64,000 nucleotides of DNA from Pocillopora damicornis (taxonomy: Eukaryota): contig NW_020847586.1 of NCBI RefSeq assembly GCF_003704095.1, positions 248,001-312,000 on the forward strand, given 5' to 3'. The position numbers are program-made. This document shows, one piece after another, positions 39,001 through 45,000 of this stretch. Every line of letters begins with the position of its first letter. Position 1 is the stretch's first letter.

Positions 39001-42000
39001 NNNNNNNNNNNNNNNNNNNNNNNNNNNNNNNNNNNNTTGTTGTGAAATAACAATGATTCAAATGGAGATTAGAAGTTATCATGTTACTGAGGAGCAGTGA
39101 TAAAGACGAACTTACCCCGGACACTACAAGTTCACCACTGATCATCTGTACGTCAGCTTTCACTCGGGCTGTGATGGTCAGCTGATGGGAATATAGTGCA
39201 ATGCGCTGTATGTACGCTAACAGATCGTTCTTTGAACTTGAATCAGGACACTAATAAAAATATAGGTAGAAGTTGGTATATTAACCAAACGAAGGTACGC
39301 AACAGTTTCAAAAATCAAATCCCTGTTCTAGGATTTCGGTCAGTTCAGAAGAGTGAAAATGTCGAGCGAGAGGAACATAGCCTGTTCCTTCCAAATGCAA
39401 TTTTCACCCTCTTCACTAGTCTCCACCGAGTCAGAGTCTAGCACAAACTATACTCAACAAAGAGCTTAGAACCTCTAATCCACACAACAAAATTAGAGCG
39501 CTTTTTTAAAGAGCATTTTGGGCCCAGAAATCTATTTCAGCCGTTGCCAAAACATGTTGATCAATGATGCCTCCTTGAGTTAAGAATTTACCTTCTGTGC
39601 AATTTCAGTAGCTTTTTCATTCATCTTTCTTCCAGCTTTGGCAATTCTCTGAAGAATGAAGAACGAATAGAATAAACATTGATGGTCAATAAACACTGAA
39701 ATTCACCCAAAACACTGTTCCTTACCTTAGCAGCATCAATCACATCCATCGTAGTTTTCAGCGGTCCTGTTCCCCTGAAGTCAAAATGACAATAACAAAA
39801 TTAATGAAAATTTCACAATTTCATGGCTTATTGACGACAATTCTGTTTTCCAATAAAAACGGGGCCTGAGTTAGAGGTGTTATCAGAAGCATAATGACAT
39901 GATCGGAACAACCAGCATAATATTGATATCGTCCGTGACTCCGTTGCTAAACCCGTAACTCCCTTGAGTGACCAAGACAGATTTTCTCCTCACATATATC
40001 AGACAGACAAGTTATGAAAATAAAGATAAATATTAATTAGGGAATTACTAGTTGATCTAATACCAAAATTCTCCGATCTAACATAATGAGAATTGTATGG
40101 CAGACAGACTTTGGGGGTAGTGCCATACTCGGAAGCCTCGGAACCAGCATTACAATGGATAAATTTGCAACTACGACGATCTTAGTTTCAGAGGAGAATT
40201 TGCGGAATCAGATGAACACAAACACGTTCCGAATTCCTTACGACTCCAACTCCGTCGATCTTGCGGCTCCGCTTACGAACCCACCTTCCAATGTTCAATA
40301 CCTCGTGAGCGCTCCAACGAGCTCGTCTCCAACTTCGTTTCTGTCTCAAACTCAGACACTCGCAAAAACCATTATAAAAACGTACTCTACCTTGTGAAGT
40401 CGGACATTTCCATCATCATCATGCACATCTTCTTCGCCAGGATAATAATATCATTTCCACTTTCGTCCCATTTGGTCAACTCTCTTTCCAGCTTTTTCTT
40501 CTCTAGTTTCAGTCCCTCGGCCAGCTGTTCAATCTTAGCTTTTTCTTCTGCCGGCAGAGCTCTCATAAGGGACTGGAGACAAGATCAGAAATAACCAAGA
40601 ATTAATGTTGCAAACTCAAGACGACGATTATGTGACGTGTGTAGGAACTGAATACGTGAGACGGATTTTTTGGATTTAATTCCTGCGGATTTTCTGGATT
40701 ATCCACGAAAAAACAAAACAAAGTTATAATATATGTGGGAGAAAAAAGTGAAATATCATGAATGTAACTGACGTTTCTTTCCTAGACAATGTTCTTCTGC
40801 TTAAAGAGAAAGTCGAAAAAATTAGATCCAAAGGAAATTGCGGTACACTCAGACCGCAAAAATTTGCCCCGATACCGTCATCCTTCTTAATTACACTACC
40901 ACACAGCTTTCAAGCTACAAAACTTCCTCCTTCGCGACTGTATTTTTGCTTTAGTCATACGACACGCAACGCGCGACACGCGAAACTCGACACGCGAAAC
41001 ACTCCCTTGCCTACAGTAAATGAAAGATGACAAACAGTGGTATCTCCTACCCTTGCACTCCTCTTTGATATACTCTTATCCTTTTCCCATTCGTCAGTGT
41101 CATCAAACTCAGACCGTGCCTCATAATCAGAAACTGCTCCCTCAAATTCGTAATCCGACACTGGTTCGTACTCAGACTCCGCAGCTGTCATGGCGCCTAT
41201 AGACAATCCAAGAACAACAAAGTAAATATCTCACTAATCTCGGGTTATGGAATAGTAAATAACCCATTCAACCCACGAAATCTTACTTATTTCCTCCTCT
41301 GCTGACGGACTGGTCAGCATTTCTTCGATAACTGCAGGTCCCTGGTACCGCGGTTGGCTTATATTTTTTGCCCATTTAACTTGCTCGGGCCCTGTGTACC
41401 CCACGAAGGCCCAAGAGCCATGGAACCCAGGATGAACATTGCCTGTGGCACCTATCTCATAAAGAGCCTCCTTTGCGTCATTCACAGAAGTACCTGTTGA
41501 ATCAAGTGAGAAAAACCGTGAGAGTTAATGTTGGTAACTGGAAAAAGTAAAGTCAAAACTATGACGGTATTTAAGAAACAAAACACCTATCGATTTAAGG
41601 AACAAGTAATAAATGGCAACAACAGAGATGACTTTCTCTGTGAAAATTTTAAATTTAATAGTCGGTATAACAAATAGAACACACCGTCCAACTCAAACCG
41701 GCATGACGCCTAAAAATTCCCCTTAGACAATCAAATTACAGGCATAACTGTCAAATTAGTGCGCAAATCGGGCTTCCTATAACCAATCACGTTCAAGAAC
41801 TGCGACACAGTTTTGAACAATCGTTTGCCTGAACGTCATACTTGGTAATCACTGATTTGTGTGAAGATGCCACAAAGGTGCCCATAGATGCAACAAACCA
41901 TACTCACCAGTGGTTCCCTGGGTACCAATCAGCACTATCCTCTCCTGAGGAAGCTGTTGTAAGAACTTGGCCATCTTTGCCCCCTCCCCTTTAGACGGAT

Positions 42001-45000
42001 CTGCTGTGTCAAAGTTAGCCGCCATGATAAAGTTTCTGTCACTGTCCAGTATGACAATATTGTGTCCTCGCTGCATGGGCGATCTCTCGATGCCATTAAC
42101 TTTGATTGATGTTCGGCCTGTTCCCTTTGGATCATCTTCTCCGGTAGCGACGATCGCAACACGAACCATTCCTGAAACACCACAGCAATAGATGTTACAC
42201 GGGTATCACTTTTTATCACTGTTAATAAAATTACCAATACAAACGAGACTTGCTTCAAAAATAGTTCAATGAACCAACAGACTTCCGGTGTTCTGATGGA
42301 AAAGAGATTTCCTCTACAACACGCCCCAGTATTGGCGTATCTCACCATAGAGTATTCTGTAGCTCAATGGTGCAACATCGGAGGTCAAAGGTTAGAATCT
42401 TTCGGGGGACTCGGGTTTTTTCTAGCAGTATTGCTAATAATGTGAGAATCAAAGCAATTACTGTGAGAGTTCTGAACCAAAAACAAAACAACATGCCATC
42501 CTGTGATCCACTATGACTCTCATTTACTGGTACACATATCTACTAACAATCCACAAAGTCAAAAAATGGCTATCAGCAGCAAAACGAAAAATATTAACAA
42601 ATTAAGACAACGAACCTTTCTGTGCAGCTGGAGTGGGAATGAGTTGTGCCACAATTGCCGGTCCATGGTACCTGGGTCGCACCTCAGCTTTGGTGTAAAA
42701 TCTTGGTGCGGGTCCAGTACAGCCAGAGAAGGCGTAAGATCCATGAAAACCAGGGTCAAATGGTCCCTCTGCTCCAAGACGCTCCAGCGCTGGTGCTGCG
42801 GCGGCCACATTATTACCTAAAGATCAAACCAAGTAAAGCAATTTTCAATTCAGTGTCAAAAGTAAAGCATGGCTTCGCCCTCCTTCGTTATGTGACTGGT
42901 CTGGAGACCCAACACCACCCTTCCCACCGATTAGAATAAAAAAAAAACCCAGTTGCGACTTGGCGTTTCGTCGCCCTTCAGGAAACTTGCCTGTTTTCAT
43001 TTTCCAGTCACATTGAAGCCTTACAATATTTCCATCAGTTTTACTTATCGAATGCTTTTATTACTTTGGTTTTGGTTCATCACAGTGTATCCAATAAATT
43101 TTGGAGCCGCAAGAGGCAACACACTTATCTTCTGTCCCTTGCGTATGTAACAACTGTGTAGCTTATTTCATGTTAACATAACGCTGACGCGAACTTTGCA
43201 TTTTTAATGAAATTTTCTATCAAACGCTTGGTAGCAAGTTAAGAAAAAATAGCAGGCGCTTCGTTATCTAATCAGGATATCGAGACGATTGTAACGCGCC
43301 ATGACCAGGCCGATCGACCTCAAGAACCGTTCTCTTCGTTTTTAACCCTTACCCTGCTCTCGGCTTGTCAGCTCCTGTGTGGCCACAAGAACAACATGAT
43401 CCTCAGGAAGTTGGTTCAAAAACTGTCCCATAGCCGGGCCTTCCCCTGCATTTGTGTTAAAATTTCTGACTGCGTACACGTCACCAATCGGATCAAGTAC
43501 AACAACATTGTGCCCAGGCTTCCTGGGGCAATGTTCCACACCGTTCACCTTGATAGACGACACACCCATTCCCCCTTCATCTTCACCTCCCTCGGCTCGC
43601 ACTTCAAATTGTAATTTACCTGGAATGAAAAACAGAAATTGGGCAAACTTTTAAGTAAGCATTTAAAATAACATTGGTTTTTCTCTGCATTTTCCTGCAA
43701 AACTGGCGCCATCTTTCAACCAATCAGAAGCCAAATGAAAATCAATAGGGACTTGGTCACCCGCGTTTTCCCGCGCTTCATGTAGTTTGCTTGTCTTTAA
43801 TGTGATTTCTAAAAGGCTCCTGTCATATTTTCCTTGGTACCTCTTGTGTAACATTTTAATTGCGCTCATATTCAAGAATAGATTGAAGAGAATATGGTTT
43901 CACAGTATCGTGCATCATGGAACTCCTCACTGAACACTCTTGGCATGTGCGAGTTTTATCTTTTCTCTGAATAATCAATCACTTTGTTCTGTCAACATAC
44001 CACTCGCTTTGAGTTGTTCATAGGCAGCTTGTTCTCTGGCACGAGCCTGTGCCTCGGCAAACAGCACAGCAGCTGCATCCTCCATTTCCACTTCTTCACC
44101 AGGACCACCTCGTCTCTACGAAGACAAAAATAACAAAATGCAGATNNNNNNNNNNNNNNNNNNNNNNNNNNNNNNNNNNNNNNNNNNNNNNNNNNNNNNN
44201 NNNNNNNNNNNNNNNNNNNNNNNNNNNNNNNNNNNNNNNNNNNNNTCATCACATTATCAGTGTATGGCCCTTGTTGGTAGTTCTCCATTTCTGCAGTGAC
44301 CACATCTTCCAGTCTTGCTGTGCGTCCACGTATCTGTCCAGCAGTCCTGTCCACATTCTCGGGATCTCTCTCTTGCAGAGCCTGGACACATTTGTTCACA
44401 TCTTCCAAGACATGAGCCTCTGATGGATCACAACAGAGAACACCCTTTACACCCTAACATCAATGTCCAGATTCTCCATAGTTTTACCCTTCTCTATAAT
44501 TATACCATATTTCCTTTGTTACTGACCTTTATCAGAGGGAGAATTTGATTTTCTTGACCTTAATGTGTGATTCTGTATTCTAAAACCAAATTCCCCTAAC
44601 TACATGTAATTTACGAGGTTTGCATAGAAGCTGAAGGCAGGAATTAACAATCAGATCTTGTGAGTTGAAAGAGCTAAACAACACTGCACACTTAGTGACA
44701 AGGGCACAGACAGGATATTCCAGTAAGGGGTCTCTTTGAGGGATAAAACTGGTGATAGCATTCAAAATCACCTCATTATCATAAATTTAATCATCATTTA
44801 TTATTGATGAAGATGGTTGTCACAAACTTCCTTCCACTTCCTCTCATACAATCATTAAATGCACTTACCTGTAGTAGCTAAAAAGTCTTCAATTCCAGTA
44901 ATGTCATCAACAGCCTCAGTGAGAACCTGCAATTGCTGTTCCCAAGCCTCTTTGAACACATCCATATTTTCTCGAGCCACCTTACTGTGAGGACGGGCAG

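What the first reader, a model, noticed from the sequence alone, without database searches (positions are those of the whole stretch)
41287..43619. The insert is a phase-1 symmetric, exon-shuffled and internally duplicated cassette that can be skipped in frame
Seen in sequence: the four ILEI exons are 267, 201, 264 and 207 nt, all multiples of 3 and all flanked by phase-1 introns. The internal intron falls at the equivalent position (after ...TQ) in both repeats. Established knowledge: class 1-1 modules are the typical unit of exon shuffling for extracellular domains. Inference: a two-exon module was captured from a secreted-protein gene and then tandemly duplicated. Splicing 44001 directly to 41196, or to 42171, stays in frame, so isoforms with 0, 1 or 2 domains are possible.
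Basis: partly seen in the sequence, partly recalled or inferred. Interest (0 to 1): 0.7.

Follow-up and report, generated by a model that had tools for sequence, protein, structure and literature searches.

The report
Two ILEI domains inside coral alpha-catenin
The four exons encode two ILEI/FAM3-type domains in the hinge of a coral alpha-catenin gene, the counterpart of an insert already described in a sea anemone; their all-phase-1 exon layout is real, but nothing shows that they are ever skipped.

Summary
On the minus strand, exons 43619-43353, 42816-42616, 42171-41908 and 41493-41287 (267, 201, 264, 207 nt) have AG/GT borders. All five surrounding introns are phase 1, against 2 of 18 other resolved introns of the gene. 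The host gene is alpha-catenin (PDB Catenin alpha-1 E 1.5e-299; vinculin 9e-53). The cassette sits in the hinge between M domain and actin-binding domain. Each exon pair is one ILEI/FAM3-fold domain. Copies A and B are 42-43% identical and share the internal intron's phase and split Gly codon, offset by four codons. This is the coral counterpart of the Nematostella alpha-catenin insert (Clarke 2016, PMC4948710), which is protease-stable and needed for strong F-actin binding. That paper calls the insert unique to Nematostella. Here it is also found in Stylophora, Orbicella, Desmophyllum, Actinostola and Hydractinia proteins. Ancient tandem duplication is supported. Exon shuffling is plausible, but no donor could be tested. 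In-frame skipping is arithmetically true, yet every long protein found by flank-exon searches carries both domains. The window's exons were never joined; searches ran exon by exon.

The parts
38256..51271 (-). Alpha-catenin gene as far as it could be mapped in the window. There are 23 resolved introns. Part of the coding sequence (P0006 residues 574-633) has no counterpart because of the N run at 44146-44245.
   Evidence: tblastn and word anchoring of P0006 on the window. P0006 matches PDB Catenin alpha-1 at E 1.5e-299 and vinculin at 9e-53. N runs were located and left unfilled.
44001..44115 (-). Upstream hinge exon (RRGGPGEEVEMEDAAAVLFAEAQARAREQAAYEQLKAS). It ends in phase 1. Its start at 44115 is inferred only, because the sequence upstream is masked.
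   Evidence: Its first residues align to the mouse/human alphaE-catenin hinge around residue 639. No Pfam match.
43353..43619 (-). Exon A1, 267 nt, phase 1-1. First part of ILEI domain A.
   Evidence: Pfam ILEI PF15711 E 8.8e-9, 36.2 bits against cutoff 27, profile positions 2-51 of 90. 99% identical to Stylophora pistillata 'Catenin alpha-2'.
42616..42816 (-). Exon A2, 201 nt, phase 1-1. Second part of ILEI domain A.
   Evidence: No Pfam match on its own at E<=1. 43% identical to B2, E 4e-20. 100% identical to P0006 residues 759-826.
41908..42171 (-). Exon B1, 264 nt, phase 1-1. First part of ILEI domain B.
   Evidence: Pfam ILEI E 3e-8, 34.5 bits, profile positions 1-51. 42% identical to A1, E 1e-23.
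41287..41493 (-). Exon B2, 207 nt, phase 1-1. Second part of ILEI domain B.
   Evidence: Pfam ILEI E 4.6e-4, 21.1 bits, below the cutoff of 27, profile positions 59-89.
41051..41196 (-). Downstream hinge exon (acidic linker AMTAAESEYEPVSDYEFEGAVSDYEARSEFDDTDEWEKDKSISKRSAR). Starts in phase 1 and ends in phase 0.
   Evidence: In P0006 the equivalent stretch from residue 995 aligns to alphaE-catenin from residue 638.
41197..44000 (-). Span holding the five phase-1 introns: 44000-43620 (381 nt), 43352-42817 (536), 42615-42172 (444), 41907-41494 (414), 41286-41197 (90).
   Evidence: No tRNA genes. No direct or inverted DNA repeats of 20 nt or more in 41000-44200.

Best explanation
The four exons encode two complete ILEI/FAM3-fold domains, A and B, each about 156 residues and each built from two exons. 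They sit in the flexible hinge of a scleractinian coral's alpha-catenin, between the M domain and the C-terminal F-actin-binding domain. This is the coral counterpart of the 'novel insert' of Nematostella vectensis alpha-catenin. By analogy with the Nematostella experiments, the pair most likely forms a folded, protease-stable spacer. [quoted passage not shown] The cassette is most likely included constitutively. The uniform phase-1 layout is best read as a footprint of origin: one ILEI module, already split by a phase-1 intron, entered a phase-1 position in the hinge and was then duplicated in tandem, probably before Anthozoa and Hydrozoa diverged. Shown here: exon borders and phases, domain identity, host identity, and presence in several cnidarian lineages. 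Taken from the paper: the biochemical role. Inferred: the shuffling route, the timing of the duplication, and constitutive inclusion.
For: Host identity: P0006 matches PDB Catenin alpha-1 at E 1.5e-299 and vinculin at 9e-53. AlphaE-catenin residues 10-639 align to P0006 11-641 and residues 638-902 align to P0006 995-1258, so P0006 residues 642-994 are extra.
Domain identity: Pfam ILEI on exons A1 and B1 (E 8.8e-9 and 3e-8) and on B2 (4.6e-4). Whole database proteins give two ILEI stretches each, E 3.1e-30, 2.1e-29 and 2.2e-31. The AlphaFold model of the Desmophyllum ortholog P0010 has block-mean pLDDT of about 64-88 over the ILEI part, though the whole-model mean is only 61.2. Foldseek matches it to the POMGnT1 stem domain (TM 0.76), FAM3C (0.71), FAM3B (0.70), FAM3A (0.69) and the TMEM2 ectodomain, over 153-168 columns, which is about one whole module.
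Inclusion in mRNA: P0006, P0008 and P0009 (1268-1280 aa) come from contigs of 4653-5112 nt, whereas the gene spans about 13 kb here, so those contigs must be spliced. They join the exons exactly at the borders found.
Conservation: proteins holding both ILEI and PF01044 carry source names from Stylophora, Orbicella, Desmophyllum, Actinostola and Hydractinia. All 7 proteins examined hold both A and B.
Duplication: A+B form one group against 13 other ILEI domains (support 94/90). Hydractinia A falls with A (69/61) and Hydractinia B with B (87/77).
Phases: 5 of 5 cassette introns are phase 1, against 2 of 18 elsewhere in the gene.
Function: Clarke 2016 (PMC4948710; passages read). The insert was cloned from cDNA, carries two PF15711-like regions, and yields a stable 37 kDa tryptic fragment. 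Kd for F-actin is 0.8 uM for the full protein and at least 12 uM without the insert.
Against: No expression data for this species were available, so constitutive inclusion is inferred from a handful of assembled or predicted proteins.
The biochemical role was measured only in Nematostella, and no Nematostella sequence was among my hits, so orthology of the two inserts rests on architecture and on the paper's description.
The AU test does not reject Hydractinia A and B as sisters (p 0.079, lnL difference 8.26), so the early date of the duplication is favoured but not proven.
The A clade has weak support (69/61).
No donor gene or matching intron phase in another ILEI gene was examined.
The structure was predicted with only 8 aligned sequences, and the actin-binding domain came out poorly (pLDDT below 50 from residue 444).
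None of the long hits (250 aa or more) with a BLASTP match among the best 150 of 340 representative-library hits has a credible catenin part. I cannot explain this, given that such proteins exist in the other protein set.
Confidence: 0.75

Rival explanations
1. Regulated cassette: the symmetric phase-1 exons are skipped in some tissues or stages. This would give alpha-catenin isoforms with 0, 1 or 2 ILEI domains and different actin-binding behaviour.
For: All five junctions are phase 1, so every skip keeps the frame. One Hydractinia entry is named 'isoform X2', so at least two isoforms are annotated there, though their difference is unknown. The engineered insert-less Nematostella protein is folded, more compact, and binds F-actin more than 10 times more weakly (PMC4948710), so a skipped isoform would be functionally distinct.
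Against: Searches with the non-ILEI flanking exons found only ILEI-bearing long proteins: 5 of 5 and 4 of 4. All 7 proteins examined hold both A and B. The splice sites look ordinary. Being in frame is a consequence of how the cassette arose, not evidence of use. The negative evidence is weak: proteins are clustered at 90% identity, candidates are chosen by shared words, and cluster members could not be listed.
Confidence: 0.12
2. The ILEI exons belong to a separate transcript, either a nested gene or an alternative 3' end. If the donor at 41286 is not used, the frame runs 17 more codons to a stop. That would give a truncated protein lacking the actin-binding domain.
For: The open frame continues past B2 to a stop near 41234. 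The Orbicella model P0007 (814 aa) ends in just such a read-through after B2.
Against: There is no start codon or signal peptide exon: A1 opens with a split codon and the 381-nt intron in front of it holds no matching frame. Three transcript-like proteins and three gene models run through B2 into the downstream exon. The read-through tails of the window (SKISWVEWVIYYSITRD) and of Orbicella (SKIFTRVWCRG) are not conserved. P0007 is also truncated at its N terminus, as an incomplete model would be.
Confidence: 0.04
3. The cassette did not arrive by intron-mediated exon shuffling. It arrived by another route, for example insertion of a processed copy or a segmental fusion followed by intron gain, and the phase-1 pattern is secondary or coincidental.
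For: No donor gene with matching phase-1 borders was found or could be looked for. Only about two of the five phases are independent observations. The upstream and downstream hinge exons are cnidarian-specific in part, so the hinge was remodelled beyond a clean module insertion.
Against: Module borders coincide with domain borders. The host gene's introns are otherwise mostly phase 0 (15 of 18). The same domain type is combined with many other extracellular modules and forms tandem arrays elsewhere, as mobile modules do.
Confidence: 0.25

Closest known systems
The 'novel insert' of Nematostella vectensis alpha-catenin (Clarke, Miller, Lowe, Weis, Nelson 2016, Mol Biol Evol 33:2016; PMC4948710)
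   Same: Same host protein and same position in the hinge between M domain and actin-binding domain. Similar size: 362 aa in the paper, 353 extra residues in P0006. Two regions similar to Pfam PF15711. Present in cDNA.
   Different: The paper states that other cnidarian alpha-catenins lack such an insert. Here it is found in proteins named from three stony corals, another sea anemone and a hydrozoan. The paper's main text has 0 occurrences of 'exon', 'intron', 'splic' or 'isoform'. The two-exon modules, the phase-1 layout, the A/B duplication and the full FAM3-like fold are additions made here. No Nematostella sequence was compared directly, and its supplement was closed.
ILEI/FAM3 domain proteins (FAM3A-D, POMGnT1 stem domain, TMEM2/CEMIP; Pfam PF15711)
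   Same: Sequence profile match and predicted fold. Family hallmark residues are kept in both copies: G, GxN, F-D/N-T, and several G, A and S positions.
   Different: Those proteins are secreted, in the Golgi lumen, or extracellular (established knowledge). Here the domain lies inside a cytoplasmic junction protein. Sequence identity to the solved structures is only 14-20%, and single exons found no significant PDB match by sequence: none for A1, and for B1 one chance-level match (MinD, E 1.1).
Class 1-1 modules of exon shuffling (Patthy's rule for extracellular modules; recalled, not from a call)
   Same: Both flanking introns are phase 1. The module equals one folded domain. It is tandemly duplicated in frame.
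   Different: The recipient is an intracellular protein. The module carries an internal intron, also phase 1. No donor is known.
Alternatively spliced inserts of the vinculin/alpha-catenin superfamily (the metavinculin exon, the alphaN-catenin insert; recalled, not from a call)
   Same: In-frame extra exons in the C-terminal half of a protein of this superfamily.
   Different: Those are short unstructured or helical inserts within or next to the tail, with documented isoforms. Here there are two globular domains in the hinge, and no insert-less isoform was seen.

Membership tests
ILEI / FAM3 domain (Pfam PF15711) | Profile match above Pfam's gathering score | tested here: met
   Exon A1 36.2 bits and B1 34.5 bits against a cutoff of 27. 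B2 reaches 21.1 bits, below the cutoff, and A2 has no match. Whole database orthologs score 102-109 bits with two stretches each.
ILEI / FAM3 domain (Pfam PF15711) | FAM3-type fold | tested here: met
   The model of the Desmophyllum ortholog P0010 matches the POMGnT1 stem, FAM3C, FAM3B and FAM3A with target TM 0.66-0.76 and rmsd 2.9-3.9 over 153-168 columns. This was done on a database ortholog, not on a joined model of the window. Whole-model mean pLDDT is 61.
ILEI / FAM3 domain (Pfam PF15711) | Secreted or luminal location (signal peptide, extracellular partners) | tested here: not met
   The domains are internal to alpha-catenin, flanked on both sides by catenin sequence in one reading frame. 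No signal peptide predictor was run.
ILEI / FAM3 domain (Pfam PF15711) | Conserved disulfide cysteines | tested here: inconclusive
   In 220 related ILEI domains taken from the library hits, no column has Cys in 30% or more of the sequences. Cysteines therefore do not define this branch of the family, and their absence from copy B says nothing.
Alpha-catenin | Full-length similarity to the alpha-catenin N, M and actin-binding domains, stronger than to vinculin | tested here: met
   P0006 (99% identical to exon A1, 94% to the downstream exon) scores E 1.5e-299 against Catenin alpha-1 and 9e-53 against vinculin. Window exons map to it along 51271-38256.
Alpha-catenin | Binds beta-catenin and F-actin | not testable with these tools
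   Shown for the Nematostella protein in PMC4948710, not for this coral.
Class 1-1 exon-shuffling module | Phase-1 introns on both sides of the module | tested here: met
   All five junctions are phase 1.
Class 1-1 exon-shuffling module | Module borders coincide with the borders of a folded domain | tested here: met
   In P0010, copy B (residues 140-295) starts with strand 141-150 and ends with strand 281-288. The internal intron equivalent, near residue 228, lies between strand 217-225 and helix 229-240.
Class 1-1 exon-shuffling module | The same module with the same intron phases in unrelated genes (donor) | not testable with these tools
   No eukaryotic genome collection was open. The library hits carry no genomic context.
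Class 1-1 exon-shuffling module | Phase-1 intron at the homologous site of host orthologs that lack the module | not tested
   Gene structures of non-cnidarian alpha-catenins were not available.
Alternative cassette exon | Skipping keeps the reading frame | tested here: met
   Symmetric phase 1 throughout.
Alternative cassette exon | Transcripts or proteins both with and without the exons | tested here: not met
   5 of 5 and 4 of 4 long proteins found with the flanking exons carry PF15711. This is a weak test; cluster members could not be listed.

The most novel reading that the evidence does not exclude
An extracellular-type ILEI module was captured by the cytoplasmic junction protein alpha-catenin in the cnidarian stem lineage and duplicated there. 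On this reading, constitutive, insert-dependent F-actin binding is a trait of all Cnidaria, not a Nematostella oddity. In addition, the symmetric phase-1 exons would be used to make 0-, 1- or 2-domain isoforms that switch the protein between constitutive and autoinhibited, force-gated actin binding.
Probability: 0.1. Interest if true: 0.7.

Novelty: new member of a known kind. Interest (0 to 1): 0.4.

Why it matters
Alpha-catenin is the link between cadherin junctions and actin, and how its actin binding is regulated is a central question in the evolution of animal epithelia. The only study of a cnidarian alpha-catenin treated the ILEI-like insert as a peculiarity of one sea anemone. It left open whether allosteric regulation is ancestral. 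If the insert is shared by stony corals, other anemones and hydrozoans, as the protein hits here indicate, then insert-dependent constitutive binding is probably a feature of the phylum, which changes that comparison. The exon layout adds a clean example of a domain type otherwise found in secreted proteins sitting inside a cytoplasmic protein as a phase 1-1 module. As a gene-structure finding alone it is modest. The alternative-splicing idea is the only part that would be really new, and it has no support yet.

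Tried and rejected
- I first took the host for vinculin from memory (note). The PDB search showed alpha-catenin, so that was corrected.
- Single exons against PDB sequences found no ILEI structure: B1 gave one chance-level hit (MinD, E 1.1) and A1 gave none.
- Loss of disulfide cysteines as a sign of adaptation to the cytoplasm was dropped, because related ILEI domains have no conserved cysteine columns.
- DNA-level repeats between A and B: none of 20 nt or more. The exons share 148 of 279 and 123 of 212 aligned nucleotide positions, so the duplication is visible only at protein level.
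- tRNA-derived elements in the introns: none found.
- Antisense and other-frame ORFs over the exons (43243-43611 +, 42476-42817 +, 41935-42363 -) have no Pfam match.
- Insert-less isoforms: two searches with flanking exons found none. Most of their hits were short ORF fragments from genomic contigs, which say nothing about splicing.
- Clarke et al. 2019 (PMC6433513) is not held.
- A later ctenophore cadherin-catenin paper (PMC13245172) has 0 occurrences of 'insert', 'ILEI' or 'hinge'.
- Searches of the paper library turned up only Clarke 2016 as relevant to ILEI in alpha-catenin. Of 24 papers holding both 'alpha-catenin' and 'ilei', 15 were listed, and the other 14 listed are unrelated by title.
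- Complex prediction, the atlas search and the bacterial genome-contig scan were not used, as none bears on the question.

Full report
**What is in the sequence.** The feature lies on the minus strand. Reading 44200-41000 and recomputing borders gives four exons:
- A1, 43619-43353 (267 nt)
- A2, 42816-42616 (201 nt)
- B1, 42171-41908 (264 nt)
- B2, 41493-41287 (207 nt)

Each is bounded by AG and GT. The frame that starts two bases into each exon is open in all four. It is the only open frame in A1, B1 and B2; A2 has two open frames. The neighbouring exons are 44115-44001 and 41196-41051. The start of the first is inferred, because a run of N begins just upstream. All five junctions are phase 1: 44001>43619, 43353>42816, 42616>42171, 41908>41493 and 41287>41196. 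The split codons are Gly at the first four junctions and Ser at the last. Any skip between these junctions therefore keeps the frame.

**One correction to the observation.** The internal intron is 6 codons after the TQ motif in A and 3 codons after it in B. BLASTP aligns the end of B1 with A1 residue 84, so A1 has four extra residues (SREQ) before the intron. A2 and B2 align without gaps. In the Hydractinia protein, copy A lacks these four residues. The intron is thus homologous in the two copies, with a small indel beside it in anthozoan copy A.

**The host gene.** Stop-to-stop frames on the minus strand and the first protein search show that the exons belong to a much larger gene. I first recalled it as vinculin, which was wrong. 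P0006, a 1268-aa protein 99% identical to exon A1, matches solved Catenin alpha-1 chains at E 1.5e-299 and vinculin only at 9e-53. Placing P0006 on the window maps the gene from 51271 to 38256, with 23 resolved introns. P0006 residues 574-633 have no counterpart in the window. Outside the cassette, 15 of 18 resolved introns are phase 0, two are phase 1 and one is phase 2. The five cassette introns are all phase 1 (Fisher p 0.0006). That figure overstates the case. Duplication copies phases, and an in-frame insertion into an intron must be symmetric, so only about two phases are independent.

**Where the cassette sits in the protein.** AlphaE-catenin residues 10-639 align to P0006 11-641, and residues 638-902 align to P0006 995-1258. 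The extra 353 residues therefore lie exactly at the start of the acidic hinge between the M domain and the actin-binding domain. They comprise most of the upstream exon (predicted as a short conserved stretch, AAVLFAEAQARAREQAAYEQLKAS), the two ILEI modules, and the first residues of the downstream acidic exon.

**What the modules are.** Searched exon by exon, A1 and B1 pass Pfam's gathering score for ILEI (PF15711). B2 matches the C-terminal part of the profile below threshold, and A2 has no match. Whole database proteins give two ILEI stretches each. A model of the Desmophyllum pertusum ortholog P0010 was folded as returned, with seven relatives as its alignment. It has block-mean pLDDT of about 64-88 over the two ILEI parts and is poor elsewhere. 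Foldseek matches it to the POMGnT1 stem domain, FAM3C, FAM3B, FAM3A and the TMEM2 ectodomain, with target TM 0.66-0.76 over 153-168 columns. So one two-exon module is one whole FAM3-type domain. The exon borders fall at the domain borders, and the internal intron falls in a loop between a strand and a helix.

**Relatives of the domain.** A profile of A1 and B1 found 340 proteins at E<=0.001 in the representative library, of which the best 150 were listed. The best hits are short ORF fragments. Their similarity to P0006 starts and stops at the exon borders (residues 670-759 or 826-914), at 47-88% identity. This suggests that the same exon borders exist in other genomes; their organisms are unknown to me. 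The ten long hits I scanned are:
- ILEI-only proteins: tandem arrays of 2 to 5 ILEI stretches (P0059, P0068, P0073, P0075, P0094) and one single-domain protein (P0105)
- ILEI with Trypsin
- ILEI with EGF
- ILEI with PAN and Ricin-B
- a bacterial Peptidase C25 protein with a Por secretion tail

These are architectures of secreted proteins. No long hit with a BLASTP match among the 150 has a credible catenin part, which I cannot explain. Related domains have no conserved cysteine column, so no disulfide argument can be made either way.

**Already in print.** Clarke et al. 2016 (PMC4948710; I read passages found by term search, not the whole text or the supplements) report the following for Nematostella vectensis alpha-catenin:
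- It was cloned from cDNA and has a 362-aa insert in the hinge with two regions similar to PF15711.
- The insert yields a stable 37 kDa tryptic fragment. Two modules of 156 residues would weigh about 34 kDa by my arithmetic.
- The full protein binds F-actin with Kd 0.8 uM.
- A construct lacking residues 638-1021 is more compact and binds with Kd of at least 12 uM.

The authors conclude that the insert relieves autoinhibition. The paper also says that alpha-catenins of other cnidarians lack such an insert. Its main text has no occurrence of exon, intron, splicing or isoform.

**What is new here.** The first search returned proteins with both PF15711 and PF01044 whose sources name Stylophora pistillata, Orbicella faveolata, Desmophyllum pertusum, Actinostola sp. 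and Hydractinia symbiolongicarpus, plus three unnamed transcript-like proteins (9 hits among 49 candidates). All seven that I aligned hold both copies. The insert is therefore not peculiar to Nematostella. It occurs in stony corals, another sea anemone and a hydrozoan. In my searches of the paper library I found no paper that says this. The library misses most subscription journals, and supplements were closed.

**Duplication and its date.** A and B are 42-43% identical in protein, and no DNA repeat remains. In a tree with 13 other ILEI domains, the 14 catenin copies form one group (94/90). Hydractinia A joins the anthozoan A copies (69/61) and Hydractinia B joins the B copies (87/77). Forcing the two Hydractinia copies together costs 8.26 log-likelihood units, with AU p 0.079. 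A single capture followed by one duplication before the anthozoan-hydrozoan split is thus favoured but not proven. Only one medusozoan was available. I chose the outgroup domains from the best hits, and no rows were dropped after that choice.

**Exon shuffling.**
- For: symmetric 1-1 borders that coincide with domain borders; a host gene that is otherwise mostly phase 0; a domain type that is combined freely with other modules elsewhere.
- Missing: the two decisive features, namely matching phases in other ILEI genes and a phase-1 intron at the same hinge site in alpha-catenins without the insert. Neither could be examined, because no eukaryotic genome collection was open.

I rate this origin plausible, roughly even odds against other routes.

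**Skipping.** The arithmetic is right, but it follows from the origin of the cassette. Searches with the two flanking exons, which are not ILEI and so are not biased toward inclusion, returned 5 of 5 and 4 of 4 long proteins with the insert. The remaining hits were short genomic ORF fragments. The transcript-like contigs of 4.6-5.1 kb encode the full protein with both domains. The splice sites look ordinary. This is weak negative evidence. The protein set is clustered, candidates are picked by shared words, cluster members could not be listed, and one Hydractinia entry is called isoform X2 with an unknown difference. The Nematostella deletion construct shows that an insert-less form would be stable and functionally different, which keeps the idea worth testing.

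**Other readings.** A nested gene or an early 3' end after B2 is unlikely. There is no start or signal exon. Six proteins read through into the downstream exon. The read-through tails of the window and of the truncated Orbicella model are not conserved.

**Origin of the window.** I do not take the window for human. It is from a stony coral close to, but not identical with, Stylophora pistillata: 99%, 94% and 88% identity on three exons. I did not try to identify the sample.

**What stayed unchecked.** Expression data; gene structures of other ILEI genes and of other alpha-catenins; the Nematostella sequence itself; names of the library hits; the closed metagenome and viral collections; the supplements of the 2016 paper.

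**Verdict.** The object is the coral member of a known, experimentally studied alpha-catenin insert. The additions are its exon anatomy, its full-domain nature, its old tandem duplication and its wide distribution in Cnidaria. Regulated skipping is unsupported.

Noticed in passing
window 52027-53637 (+) and 55479-55985 (+): A CNNM-type metal transporter gene lies head to head with alpha-catenin. Pfam finds CNNM (E 5.4e-32), CBS, and the CNNM2-like C-terminal CNBH domain (E 1e-36). The Actinostola entry P0011 (1566 aa) fuses CNNM C-terminal domains to alpha-catenin. That is probably a merged gene model of the same two neighbours, which would mean the neighbourhood is conserved between a sea anemone and this coral.
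   Followed up: partly
window 59115-59954 (-) and 62412-62792 (-): Two frames match rhodopsin-family 7TM receptors: 7tm_1 at E 1.1e-27 (C-terminal part of the profile) and 8.5e-13 (N-terminal part). They could be two exons of one GPCR gene or two separate genes.
   Followed up: no
window 31981-32447 (+): Two exon-like frames match the legume-like lectin family PF03388 (E 1e-11 and 1.6e-8), as in ERGIC-53/VIP36-type cargo receptors.
   Followed up: no
window 44146-44245, 38950-39036, 8775-8835: Three N runs. The first hides the alpha-catenin coding sequence that corresponds to P0006 residues 574-633. The second lies inside an intron (39115-38937). All were left unfilled.
   Followed up: no
P0007 (Orbicella faveolata entry, 814 aa); window 41286-41234: The Orbicella model starts inside the N domain and ends by reading through the donor after B2 into the intron. 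The equivalent read-through in the window would add 17 codons. The two tails are not alike, so this is probably an incomplete model and not a conserved short isoform.
   Followed up: partly
representative library hits P0045-P0194: No long hit (250 aa or more) with a BLASTP match to P0006 among the best 150 has a credible alpha-catenin part (six long hits had no BLASTP match at all), although catenin-plus-ILEI proteins exist in the other protein set. The cluster representative may be a form without the insert, or may rank below the listed 150. Unexplained.
   Followed up: no
P0096 (1917 aa, library hit): A bacterial-type protein combines Peptidase C25, two ILEI domains, CARDB and a Por secretion tail. 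The ILEI domain type is therefore not confined to animals.
   Followed up: no
window 41000-44200, introns of the cassette: Several intron stretches looked by eye like dispersed repeats, for example around 43790-43700 and 43000-42880. No repeat pair of 20 nt or more was found within the region, and no tRNA-like gene.
   Followed up: partly
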